The translations under genes and the position numbers were made by a program. A model generated the notes under the pieces. The model did no database searches and had not been told where the DNA came from. It saw only the letters and a list, made by a program, of their open reading frames with translations. A stretch of 64,000 bases of DNA from the human T2T-CHM13v2.0 reference genome, Homo sapiens, in assembly GCF_009914755.1 (NCBI RefSeq), contig NC_060934.1, one strand, 5' to 3'. This document shows positions 10,882 to 11,627 of the stretch, one piece after another (the first letter of the stretch is position 1; every line of letters begins with the position of its first letter).

Positions 10882-11627
10882 TTTTGTTTTTTGAGATGGA
10901 GTTTTGCTCTTGTTGCCCAGGTTGGAGTGCAATGGCGTGATCTCAGCTCACTGCAAACTCTGCCTCCCAGGTTCAAGCGATTCTCCTGCCTCAGCCTCTT
11001 GAGTAGCTGGGATTACAGGCAAGCGCCACCATGCCTGGCTAATTTTGTATTTTTAGTAGAGACGGGATTTCTCCACATTGCTCAGGCTGGTCTCGAACTC
11101 CCGACTGTCAGGCCTCTGAGCCCAGGCCAGGCCATCGCATCCCCTGTGACTTGCACGTATACATCCAGATGGCCTAAAGTAACTGAAGATCCACAAAAGA
11201 AGTAAAAACAGCCTTAACTGATGACATTCCACCATTGTGATTTGTTCCTGCCCCACCCTAACTGATCAATGGATCAATGTACTTTGTAATCTCCCCCACC
11301 CTTAAGAAGGTTCTTTGTAATTCTCCCCACCCTTGAGAATGTACTTTGTGAGATCCACCCCTGCCCACCAGAGAACGACCCCCTTTGGCTGTAATTTTCC
11401 ATTACCTTCCCAAATCCTATAAAACAGCCCCACCCTTATCTCCCTACGCTGACTCTCTTTTTGGACTCAGCCCGCCTGCACCCAGGTGAAATAAACAGCC
11501 ATGTTGCTCACACAAAGCCTGTTTGGTGGTCTCTTCACACGGACGCACATGAAACCAACCTCAGGTGATCTGCCCACCTTGGCCTCCCAAAGTGCTGGGA
11601 TTACAGGTGTGAGCCACCGTGCCAGCC
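10882..11627 (-). mobile_element. AluS split in two by the LTR7 insertion
   Basis: Alu consensus GAACTCCCGACCTCAGGTGATC is broken exactly at the LTR and resumes after it. Confidence 0.9.
11106..11554 (+). mobile_element. Solo HERV-H LTR (LTR7 family, LTR7Y-like), 449 bp
   Basis: Starts TGTCAGGCCTCTGAGCCC and ends CACACGGACGCACATGAAA; TATAAAA 11418-11424, AATAAA 11490-11495; internal repeats of the CTTTGTAATCTCCCCACCCTT type; 5-bp TSD CCGAC/CCAAC. Subfamily call from memory. Confidence 0.9.

What the first reader, a model, noticed from the sequence alone, without database searches (positions are those of the whole stretch)
11106..11554. Solo HERV-H LTR7Y-like element 4 kb upstream of FRAT2: candidate primate-specific pluripotency enhancer for a Wnt activator
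Seen: an intact 449-bp LTR with TATA and polyA signal, several KLF-type CCCCACCC boxes (~11251, 11294, 11325, 11428), SOX-like CATTGTG (11233-11239) and TCF/LEF-like CTTTGTA (11282, 11313). It points away from FRAT2, so it cannot be the FRAT2 promoter. Known: LTR7-family elements act as promoters/enhancers in human pluripotent cells, with LTR7Y linked to KLF-driven naive/pre-implantation states; FRAT proteins inhibit GSK3 and stabilise beta-catenin. Inference: a retroviral enhancer could wire FRAT2 into the pluripotency network, possibly with TCF feedback.
Basis: partly seen in the sequence, partly recalled or inferred. Interest (0 to 1): 0.7.

Follow-up and report, generated by a model that had tools for sequence, protein, structure and literature searches.

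The report
Solo HERV-H LTR upstream of FRAT2
This is an ordinary leftover end-piece of the HERV-H retrovirus family, roughly ten million years old, lying 4 kb from FRAT2; it keeps its family's binding-site boxes, but nothing yet shows that it controls the gene.

Summary
Window 11106-11554 (+) is a complete 449-nt solo LTR. It sits inside one Alu and is flanked by a 5-base target duplication.

Family: HERV-H (LTR7 group). The LTR is 94-96% identical to 441-nt copies elsewhere in the genome. In sibling proviruses, 15 of 19 upstream LTRs are followed by a tRNA-His primer site.

Subfamily: a mosaic. The middle repeat block is LTR7B-like and the promoter-proximal U3 is LTR7u2/LTR7-like. That is how Carter et al. 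2022 describe 7y (Type Ia). The mosaic junction occurs 78 times, as 24 proviral pairs and 30 singles. No RepeatMasker or Dfam call was possible. The one print-labelled 'LTR7Y' copy I could fetch belongs to a different 434-nt group.

Age: sibling LTR pairs differ by a median of 2.0%, about 8-10 My, and the window copy is typical of its group. Orthology in apes could not be tested.

Function: the KLF-type, SOX-like and TCF-like motifs are inherited family features. RefSeq places no functional element or transcript start on the LTR. No searchable paper links FRAT2 with LTR7 or HERVH. The FRAT2-enhancer idea remains untested.

The parts
10877..11105 (-). Left piece of the host Alu into which the element integrated
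   Evidence: Masked as repeat. Aligns to other Alus of the window at 83-87% identity, up to its last base.
11101..11105 (.). Left copy of the 5-base target-site duplication (CCGAC)
   Evidence: A 5-base overlap of the two Alu pieces is seen on 5 of 5 reference Alus.
11106..11554 (+). Solo LTR of the HERV-H (LTR7) family, 7y/Type Ia-type mosaic, two-unit length form, 449 nt
   Evidence: (94-96% to 441-nt kin; 3232 candidates, 40 scored).
11106..11255 (+). 5' U3 segment, shared with both the 7u2-type and 7B-type references. It lacks the 9-nt insertion that 7u2 and 7up copies carry.
   Evidence: 0.93 matched to 7u2-type, 0.90 to 7B-type; alignments A1 and A2.
11256..11355 (+). Middle repeat block: two CTTTGTAA / CCCCACCC / TTAAGAAGG-type units. 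It is 7B-like and absent from 7u2-type LTRs.
   Evidence: 0.67 matched to 7B-type, 0.36 to 7u2-type, 0.11 to ESRG.
11264..11279 (+). Private 8-nt tandem duplication (GATCAATG twice), which accounts for 449 nt against 441 nt in kin
11356..11460 (+). Promoter-proximal U3, 7u2/LTR7-like, with the TATA box at 11418-11424 and a KLF-type box at 11428-11435
   Evidence: 0.92 matched to 7u2-type, 0.49 to 7B-type.
11251..11332 (+). Span holding three of the four CCCCACCC boxes (starts 11251, 11294, 11325); the fourth starts at 11428
   Evidence: 26 of 48 two-unit kin also have four.
11461..11554 (+). R-U5 part with the poly(A) signal AATAAA at 11490-11495. It is the most conserved part of the whole LTR7 superfamily.
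   Evidence: The 62-mer at 11485-11546 has 1110 places in the genome at up to 3 mismatches and 0 in the control.
11555..11559 (.). Right copy of the target-site duplication (CCAAC)
11555..11630 (-). Right piece of the same host Alu
   Evidence: Masked as repeat. Aligns at 88-94% to other Alus, starting at its first base.
4697..6929 (-). FRAT2, the neighbouring gene; its start is 4177 nt from the LTR
   Evidence: Gene table of the finding.

Best explanation
Shown: the feature is the solitary LTR left by a HERV-H provirus that integrated into an Alu 4.2 kb upstream of FRAT2. It belongs to the small, young mosaic subfamily that print calls LTR7Y (Type Ia, '7y'). That subfamily has an LTR7/7u2-type backbone and promoter-proximal U3, and it carries the repeat block with KLF/Sp1-type CCCCACCC boxes that it shares with LTR7B.

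Inferred: the internal part was lost by recombination between the two LTRs. [quoted passage not shown]

What remains is a fossil promoter module: four KLF-type boxes, a TATA box and a poly(A) signal.

Inferred from its class: like other LTR7Y/B solo LTRs, it may be bound by KLF4/5/17 and opened in cells high in those factors (8-cell to epiblast, naive stem cells, some squamous tumours). It is most probably silent elsewhere. It is not expected to be active in primed stem cells, because it lacks the SOX2/3 insertion of LTR7up.

Not shown: any effect on FRAT2. My estimate is that it has no sizeable effect.
For: Solo status and target duplication.

Family:
- 3232 first-look candidates; the 40 scored are 94-100% identical and full length.
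- Identity to print-labelled copies is 83% (CALB1 LTR), 81-83% (the chr17 'LTR7Y' reporter provirus), 77% (ESRG), 74% (GSDMB 'LTR7B') and 69% (UCA1 'LTR7C').
- 15 of 19 sibling upstream LTRs are followed by a match of at least 15 of 18 to the complement of the tRNA-His 3' end; 7 of these are 18 of 18.

Mosaic structure:
- Segment-wise local alignments against 12 7u2-type and 9 7B-type copies and alignment A2.
- This agrees with Carter et al. 2022 (sections read). [quoted passage not shown]

Copy number and form:
- The junction 40-mer has 78 places and 0 in the control.
- These form 24 pairs 2.9-7.9 kb apart plus 30 singles, so 44% of loci are paired. Print gives 77 proviral to 77 solo for 7y and 113 to 524 for 7b.
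- The 7B-type 42-mer has 375 places, mostly single.

Age:
- LTR-LTR divergence in the 24 sibling pairs has a median of 2.03% (range 1.13-4.55%).
- The window copy is in the minority at 8 of 441 columns, 5 of them CpG-type, against a family median of 1.95% (rank 25 of 74).
- Its star-tree branch is 1.73%, rank 34 of 74.
- Print places most 7y growth at 10-14 My by orthology.

Class behaviour:
- KLF5 binds LTR7Y more strongly than LTR7, solo LTRs included (passages).
- LTR7Y/B solo LTRs are KLF4/KLF17-activated and H3K27ac-marked in naive cells (passages).
- 7y is expressed at 8-cell/morula and in epiblast.
Against: - No RepeatMasker or Dfam call could be run, so the name rests on block structure, copy statistics and print.
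- The only individual copy labelled 'LTR7Y' in print that I could fetch (the reporter element, chr17) is 81-83% identical and lacks the middle block. It groups with the CALB1 LTRs, which print re-names 7u2. The label is therefore ambiguous.
- Carter et al. report that 22% of RepeatMasker '7b' copies become 7y on re-annotation, so the public track may well call this copy LTR7B.
- Their figures and supplementary tables, which would settle the name, were not visible to me.
- The 78-place count needs at most 3 mismatches in 40 nt and so misses diverged members.
- Ages rest on recalled substitution rates (1.0-1.2e-9 per site per year; 2.2e-9 as a fast bound) and on only 8 differences in the window copy.
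- Orthology in apes was not testable.
- Nothing was measured about chromatin or binding at this locus.
Confidence: 0.72

Rival explanations
1. The LTR is a KLF-driven enhancer, active in naive or pre-implantation pluripotency, that raises FRAT2 and so ties a Wnt activator into the pluripotency network, perhaps with TCF feedback.
For: - It has four KLF-type boxes, the full number for the two-unit form.
- The class is KLF-bound and H3K27ac-marked in naive cells (passages).
- It lies 4.2 kb from the FRAT2 start (gene table).
- The region already carries RefSeq hESC enhancer features at 5640-6547 and 9083-9601.
Against: - There is no RefSeq functional element on the LTR, although 4 of 17 LTR7-family places on chr10 carry one.
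- 0 papers hold FRAT2 with LTR7* and 0 hold FRAT2 with HERVH. FRAT2 is not in the main text of Pontis et al. 2019.
- In that paper, effects of LTR7Y/B silencing did not follow proximity.
- CTTTGTA and CATTGTG are family-wide letters, not gains at this locus.
- Supplementary tables that might list this locus were closed.
Confidence: 0.13
2. The LTR is a member of LTR7B (Type II), not LTR7Y.
For: - It shares the middle repeat block with the GSDMB 'LTR7B' copy and its kin.
- Like them, it lacks the 9-nt insertion of 7u2/7up copies.
- Print says that many copies of this build were RepeatMasker-labelled 7b.
Against: - The promoter-proximal U3 (11356-11460) matches 7B-type copies at only 0.49, against 0.92 for 7u2-type.
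- The 7B-type 42-mer is absent from the window LTR.
- The group is young and about half proviral. The GSDMB-type kin are 79-88% alike and mostly solo.
Confidence: 0.15
3. It is a wholly inert remnant: methylated and closed in every cell state, with no binding and no transcription.
For: - There is no annotated transcript start, CAGE cluster or functional element on it.
- It has already lost part of its CpGs; 5 of its 8 minority columns are CpG-type.
- Only a fraction of any LTR class is active (the phrase 'hundreds' covers three families).
Against: It keeps all four KLF-type boxes, the TATA box and the poly(A) signal, and its class is among the best KLF targets.
Confidence: 0.35
4. It acts on the host lncRNA LOC105378448 rather than on FRAT2. 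It lies in that lncRNA's intron in the same orientation, so it could serve as an internal promoter or as a premature poly(A) site.
For: It has the same strand as the lncRNA (exons 7046-7171 and 15005-15401; gene table). The TATA box and AATAAA are intact.
Against: - No RefSeq isoform starts or ends in the LTR.
- A solo LTR lacks the splice donor of the proviral leader. This point is established knowledge and was not tested here.
Confidence: 0.07

Closest known systems
LTR7Y (Repbase/Dfam name; 'Type Ia' of Goodchild and Mager; '7y' of Carter et al. 2022)
   Same: - Mosaic build: an LTR7/7u2-type frame plus the large block shared with 7b.
- About one provirus per solo LTR.
- Young.
- Rich in KLF-type boxes: 4-5 per copy, against 0-1 in the 7u2-type references. 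Print says the LTR7Y consensus has the most KLF5 sites.
   Different: - This copy is the two-unit (441-nt) length form. 25 of 74 kin have three units.
- It has a private 8-nt duplication.
- The formal RepeatMasker name was not obtained.
LTR7u2 of Carter et al. (the CALB1 provirus LTRs and the chr17 'LTR7Y' reporter element)
   Same: Near-identical 5' U3, promoter-proximal U3 and R-U5 (0.92-0.95 matched). Similar in age: these copies are 96-98% alike among themselves.
   Different: These copies lack the middle repeat block, carry a 9-nt insertion that the window LTR lacks, are 434 nt long, and have 0-1 CCCCACCC box. Whole-length identity to the window LTR is only 81-83%.
LTR7B (Type II), e.g. 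the solo LTR that gives GSDMB an alternative promoter
   Same: The repeat units with CTTTGTAA and CCCCACCC-type boxes, and the absence of the 9-nt insertion.
   Different: A different promoter-proximal U3 and TATA region (0.49 matched). The group is older and mostly solo. Whole-length identity is 74%.
LTR7up (ESRG-type), the HERV-H promoter of primed stem cells
   Same: The same superfamily; R-U5 and promoter-proximal U3 are alike (0.88-0.95).
   Different: LTR7up has the duplicated block 2a/2b with the 8-nt SOX2/3 site needed for activity in primed cells. The window LTR has the other version of block 2b plus the repeat block.

Membership tests
Solo LTR of an endogenous retrovirus | Flanked by a short target-site duplication, with both flanks continuous in the pre-insertion sequence | tested here: met
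   The two Alu pieces overlap by 5 bases on 5 of 5 reference Alus. The copies read CCGAC / CCAAC.
Solo LTR of an endogenous retrovirus | No internal sequence and no partner LTR nearby | tested here: met
   Only a self-match in the 64-kb window. The LTR abuts Alu sequence on both sides.
Solo LTR of an endogenous retrovirus | Dispersed copies, some as same-strand pairs at proviral spacing | tested here: met
   24 pairs 2.9-7.9 kb apart.
HERV-H (LTR7 superfamily) | LTR homologous to LTRs that print names as HERV-H LTRs (ESRG, CALB1, chr17 reporter, GSDMB, UCA1) | tested here: met
   69-83% whole-length identity; R-U5 about 0.95 matched.
HERV-H (LTR7 superfamily) | Primer-binding site complementary to tRNA-His next to the upstream LTR | tested here: met
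   Tested on siblings only: 15 of 19 have at least 15 of 18 matches, and the other 4 have 9-12 of 18. The solo LTR itself has no such site by its nature.
HERV-H (LTR7 superfamily) | Inner genes of HERV-H type | not tested
No inner gene was fetched or read.
LTR7Y / Type Ia / 7y | Large block shared with 7b (block 3 of Carter et al.) | tested here: met
   11256-11355 matches 7B-type copies at 0.67, against 0.36 for 7u2-type; alignment A2. The block's definition was read; the figure itself was not visible.
LTR7Y / Type Ia / 7y | Rest of the LTR close to 7u2/LTR7, not to 7b | tested here: met
   11356-11460: 0.92 against 0.49. R-U5: 0.95 against 0.85.
LTR7Y / Type Ia / 7y | About as many proviruses as solo LTRs | tested here: met
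   24 pairs to 30 singles among the 78 junction places. Print: 77 to 77.
LTR7Y / Type Ia / 7y | Insertions mostly after the orangutan split (orthology) | not testable with these tools
   No primate genomes were on hand. The sequence clock agrees: a median of 2.0% between sibling LTRs.
LTR7Y / Type Ia / 7y | Best RepeatMasker/Dfam score to the LTR7Y model | not testable with these tools
LTR7u2 (434-nt group; includes the print-labelled 'LTR7Y' reporter copy) | No middle repeat block, 9-nt insertion present, 96-98% identity within the group | tested here: not met
   The window LTR has the block, lacks the insertion and is 81-83% identical.
LTR7B (Type II) | 7B-type promoter-proximal U3 | tested here: not met
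   0.49 matched. The 42-mer typical of that U3 (375 places) is absent from the window LTR.
LTR7up | 8-nt SOX2/3 insertion in the duplicated block 2b | tested here: not met
   Alignment A1 with the ESRG LTR; the feature is defined.
Pluripotency enhancer of FRAT2 (functional class) | Enhancer evidence at the element in stem cells | tested here: not met
   No RefSeq functional element overlaps 11106-11554. The nearest are at 9083-9601 and 5640-6547. Such features do occur on LTR7-family copies, at 4 of 17 places on chr10. This covers only the datasets that RefSeq imported.
Pluripotency enhancer of FRAT2 (functional class) | Binding, open chromatin and promoter contact in naive cells or embryos | not testable with these tools

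The most novel reading that the evidence does not exclude
This copy keeps the full set of KLF-type boxes. It may be one of the LTR7Y solo LTRs that open in 8-cell to epiblast cells. If so, it would give FRAT2 (4 kb away), and perhaps FRAT1 (17 kb away), a stage-specific boost limited to African great apes and humans. That would be a lineage-specific link between the KLF programme and GSK3/beta-catenin control.
Probability: 0.12. Interest if true: 0.45.

Novelty: already known. Interest (0 to 1): 0.2.

Why it matters
As it stands the finding is ordinary. It is a repeat-masked member of a described HERV-H LTR subfamily, with the motifs that every member carries.

Its practical value is as a worked example of a naming trap. 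'LTR7Y' in print covers two different builds: the 434-nt 7u2 kind used as a naive-state reporter, and the 441/472-nt mosaic kind found here. Class-level statements about 'LTR7Y' therefore cannot be moved to a single copy without checking its build.

If the copy did prove to be an active KLF-bound element contacting FRAT2, it would add one modest, testable case of lineage-specific wiring of a Wnt-pathway gene.

Tried and rejected
1. A 36-mer from the promoter-proximal U3 was meant as a subfamily marker. It has 1420 places and is shared by several subfamilies, so I dropped it as a marker.

2. The first fetch at the annotated GSDMB gene end (L003) held no LTR. The solo LTR lies about 800 nt inside the gene and was found after a wider fetch.

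3. A sliding identity profile on one multiple alignment gave low values to both reference sets in the repeat block, because the repeat units were aligned out of register. I replaced it with local alignments per segment.

4. Counting columns where fewer than 5% of kin share the window copy's base gave only 2 of 441. This undercounts, because CpG sites change in parallel in many copies. Thresholds from 10% to 50% gave 6-8 of 441.

5. I first took the two length forms (441 and about 472 nt) for separate lineages. Substitution distances within and between them are equal (3.7%, 3.6% and 3.7%), and 5 of 24 proviruses carry one LTR of each form. They are therefore one subfamily.

6. The longer form was cut by about 21 nt at its 5' end by my fetch bounds. 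Those copies were used with pairwise deletion and were not re-fetched.

7. Paper searches for a printed description of Type Ia LTRs gave only the name equivalence (Type I = LTR7, Type II = 7b, Type Ia = 7y). Goodchild 1993 and Nelson 1996 were seen only as cited in Carter et al.

8. The proviral share of the 7B-type group (6 pairs and 58 singles) was counted by eye. It covers only the 70 exact-match places listed, out of 375, so it is a rough lower bound and is not strictly comparable with the 78-place count.

9. The Alu subfamily was not named, because no labelled Alu was on hand.

10. Papers:
- Carter et al. 2022 (PMC8912925): outline, sections 5, 6, 9, 10, 11, 14 and 30, and passages.
- PMC10348765, PMC12228294, PMC9385571, PMC6829768, PMC6509360 and PMC10379226: passages only.
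- PMC8622856: search listing only.
Three of them may bear on the name and on the FRAT2 link: the re-annotation table of Carter et al., Supplemental Figure 10 of PMC10348765, and the gene tables of PMC6509360.

11. Recalled, not from any call:
- the substitution rates;
- the hg19 place of CCL2, used to map the reporter element. That mapping is also supported by the matching 421-nt length of the L001 LTR and by the ASIC2/CCL2 neighbours;
- that RefSeq's hESC enhancer features come from a ChIP-STARR-seq study;
- that 5-base duplications are usual for HERV-H.
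Full report
WHAT IS THERE

Window 11106-11554 (+) is a 449-nt element that starts with TG and ends ...ATGAAA.
- CCCCACCC at 11251, 11294, 11325 and 11428;
- CATTGTG at 11233;
- CTTTGTA at 11282 and 11313;
- TATAAA at 11418;
- AATAAA at 11490.

The element interrupts a minus-strand Alu (masked stretches 10877-11378 and 11387-11630). I compared the two Alu pieces separately with other Alus of the window. 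In 5 of 5 reference Alus where both pieces align up to the junction, the pieces overlap by exactly 5 bases. The flanks read CCGAC and CCAAC. This is a 5-base target-site duplication with one CpG-type difference.

A blastn of the element against the whole 64-kb window finds only the element itself. It is therefore a solo LTR. It lies 4177 nt from the FRAT2 start and points away from it. It sits in the intron of lncRNA LOC105378448, in the same orientation (gene table).

IS IT REAL, AND OF WHAT FAMILY

A search of the reference genome gave 3232 first-look candidates. The 40 that were scored include the element itself, 39 full or nearly full-length copies at 94-96% identity (mostly 441 nt), and one fragment. 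The 8 extra bases in the window copy are a private tandem duplication at 11264-11279. The R-U5 62-mer occurs 1110 times at up to 3 mismatches and 0 times in the reversed control.

Print gave me labelled copies, which I fetched as LTR-only stretches:
- the CALB1-associated provirus, which is RepeatMasker LTR7Y and was re-named 7u2 (PMC10348765, passages);
- the 'LTR7Y' reporter element at hg19 chr17:32,515,593-32,516,013 (PMC6829768, passages);
- the solo 'LTR7B' that gives GSDMB an alternative promoter (PMC9385571, passages);
- the ESRG LTR (LTR7up type);
- the UCA1 LTR (LTR7C) (listing).

Identity of the window LTR to these copies is 83%, 81-83%, 74%, 77% and 69%. It is thus a member of the LTR7 superfamily.

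As an independent check of the 'H', I fetched the 28 nt that follow 19 of the 24 sibling upstream LTRs, together with a tRNA-His gene (confirmed by ARAGORN). In 15 of 19 flanks there is a match of at least 15 of 18 to the complement of the tRNA-His 3' end, starting 1-2 nt after the LTR. Seven of these are 18 of 18, and the other four are 9-12 of 18. No inner gene was needed or read.

SUBFAMILY

Alignments A1 and A2 show a mosaic. Local alignments of four segments against 12 7u2-type and 9 7B-type copies make it quantitative:

| Segment | Matched to 7u2-type | Matched to 7B-type |
|---|---|---|
| 11106-11255 | 0.93 | 0.90 |
| 11256-11355 | 0.36 | 0.67 |
| 11356-11460 | 0.92 | 0.49 |
| 11461-11554 | 0.95 | 0.85 |

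The middle segment is the block of CTTTGTAA / CCCCACCC / TTAAGAAGG-type units. The third segment carries the TATA box. Like the 7B-type copies, the window LTR also lacks a 9-nt insertion that the 7u2 and 7up copies carry.

Carter et al. 2022 describe exactly this build for 7y (sections 5, 6, 9, 10, 14 read):
- 7y, 7u2, 7b and 7c share block 2b.
- 7y is otherwise close to 7u2.
- Type Ia (7y) arose by recombination of Type I (LTR7) with Type II (7b).

A 40-mer across the junction of the 7B-like block and the 7u2-like U3 occurs 78 times in the genome, with 0 in the control. These 78 places form 24 same-strand pairs 2.9-7.9 kb apart plus 30 singles, so 44% of loci are paired. This is close to the 77 proviral to 77 solo printed for 7y and unlike the 113 to 524 printed for 7b.

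The 7B-type U3 42-mer has 375 places, mostly single. The GSDMB LTR's best kin are only 79-88% identical to it, so that group is older.

KLF-type boxes number 4-5 per copy in the window LTR's group, against 0-1 in the 7u2-type references. This fits the printed statement that the LTR7Y consensus has the most KLF5 sites and that the CALB1 LTRs have few.

Two cautions apply:
- I could not run RepeatMasker, and print says that 22% of RepeatMasker '7b' copies become 7y on re-annotation. The public track may therefore say LTR7B.
- The 'LTR7Y' reporter copy is not of this build. It is a 96% hit of the CALB1 LTR and lacks the block. 'LTR7Y' in print thus covers two builds.

The group comes in two length forms, with two repeat units (49 of the 74 copies measured, the window LTR among them) or three (25 copies). 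Substitution distances are the same within and between the forms (3.7%, 3.6%, 3.7%).

AGE

Among 74 copies of 400 nt or more, out of 78, the mean pairwise difference is 3.7% with gaps ignored.

The two LTRs of the 24 sibling proviruses differ by a median of 2.03% (range 1.13-4.55%). This gives a median of 8.4-10.1 My at 1.2-1.0e-9 per site per year, or 4.6 My at 2.2e-9 (the rates are recalled).

The window copy is an average member:
- Its branch in a star decomposition of the distance matrix is 1.73%, rank 34 of 74.
- It is in the minority at 8 of 441 columns, 5 of them CpG-type, against a family median of 1.95% (rank 25 of 74).

With eight events the error is wide.

I put this copy at about 10 My, plausibly 5-15 My. 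The orthologous site in apes could not be checked here. The host Alu only says that the insertion is younger than that Alu.

HOW IT MOST LIKELY WORKS

What remains is a promoter fossil: KLF-type boxes, a TATA box, R with the poly(A) signal, and U5.

The motifs are inherited, not gained at this locus. Among the 73 kin copies of 400 nt or more:
- 100% have at least two CCCCACCC boxes (median 4);
- 93% have CATTGTG;
- 100% have CTTTGTA;
- 99% have TATAAAA;
- 96% have AATAAA.

The window copy keeps the full four boxes, as do 26 of 48 two-unit kin.

Print shows the following for the class:
- KLF5 binds LTR7Y more strongly than LTR7, solo LTRs included.
- KLF4 and KLF17 activate LTR7B/Y solo LTRs, many of which carry H3K27ac in naive cells.
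- 7y RNA appears at 8-cell/morula and in the epiblast.
- The SOX2/3 site needed in primed cells is an 8-nt insertion unique to 7up and 7u1, which this LTR lacks.

The best-supported mechanism is therefore a KLF-gated element that may open in early-embryo-like states and is silent in primed cells and most tissues. This is inference from the class, not a measurement at this copy.

THE FRAT2 LINK

I found nothing that supports it beyond nearness.
- RefSeq places hESC enhancer features at 5640-6547 and 9083-9601 but none on the LTR, and no transcript start or CAGE cluster there.
- The same feature set does touch LTR7-family LTRs elsewhere: 4 of 17 places on chr10, including one of the five other junction-type places. 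The blank therefore carries some weight for the cell states assayed.
- No paper in the searchable library holds FRAT2 together with LTR7* or HERVH.
- A search for FRAT2 with naive, primed and pluripotent gave one review, seen in the listing only.
- FRAT2 is absent from the main text of Pontis et al.. That paper reports that silencing LTR7Y/B changed genes irrespective of proximity.
- Supplementary tables were closed and might list this locus.

VERDICT

The identity claim is supported, with the naming caveat above. The regulatory claim is untested and, on present descriptive evidence, unlikely to be large.

The element is a known kind of thing in a known place. I score interest at 0.2. The boldest reading left open is a KLF-gated, ape-specific input to FRAT2 (and perhaps FRAT1) in the pre-implantation embryo. 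I give it about 0.12.

Noticed in passing
L001/L002 (G000 C17:35134860-35135335 and 35129479-35129954) and L004/L095 (C8:91219075-91219560, 91213870-91214303): The element used in print as an 'LTR7Y' naive-state reporter and the CALB1 LTRs belong to one 434-nt group without the middle repeat block. The chr17 upstream LTR is a 96% hit of the CALB1 LTR. The label LTR7Y therefore covers two different builds, and the window LTR is of the other one.
   Followed up: partly
Sibling proviruses at G000 C2:57.19 Mb, C5:180.97 Mb, C10:121.74 Mb, C12:70.06 Mb, C23:108.31 Mb (L027/L028, L041/L013, L053/L054, L064/L065, L085/L017): In 5 of 24 proviruses one LTR has two repeat units and the other has three. 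Unit number therefore changes recurrently and is not a lineage marker.
   Followed up: partly
L083/L084 (G000 C23:4085227-4085687 and 4090623-4091083): The two LTRs of this X-chromosome provirus differ by 4.55%, the most of all 24 pairs. The upstream one has a 7u2-like 5' segment with the 9-nt insertion. This looks like a hybrid or converted LTR.
   Followed up: no
window 9083-9601: A RefSeq 'OCT4-NANOG hESC enhancer' lies in non-repeat DNA between FRAT2 and the LTR, and an 'H3K27ac hESC enhancer' lies on the FRAT2 body at 5640-6547. If FRAT2 has stem-cell input, these are the annotated candidates.
   Followed up: partly
G000 C11:130605254-130605399: A 146-nt partial LTR copy (query 303-449, 92%) lies 6 nt from a full sibling LTR. 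It is a tandem partial duplication of the LTR end.
   Followed up: no
L024/L025 (G000 C1:12502744-12503204, +; C1:12683761-12684221, -): Two junction-type copies lie 181 kb apart on opposite strands, one three-unit and one two-unit. They may lie in an inverted segmental duplication.
   Followed up: no
window 11631-11760: A T-rich run and a truncated second Alu-like piece follow directly after the host Alu. This is an ordinary repeat pile-up.
   Followed up: no
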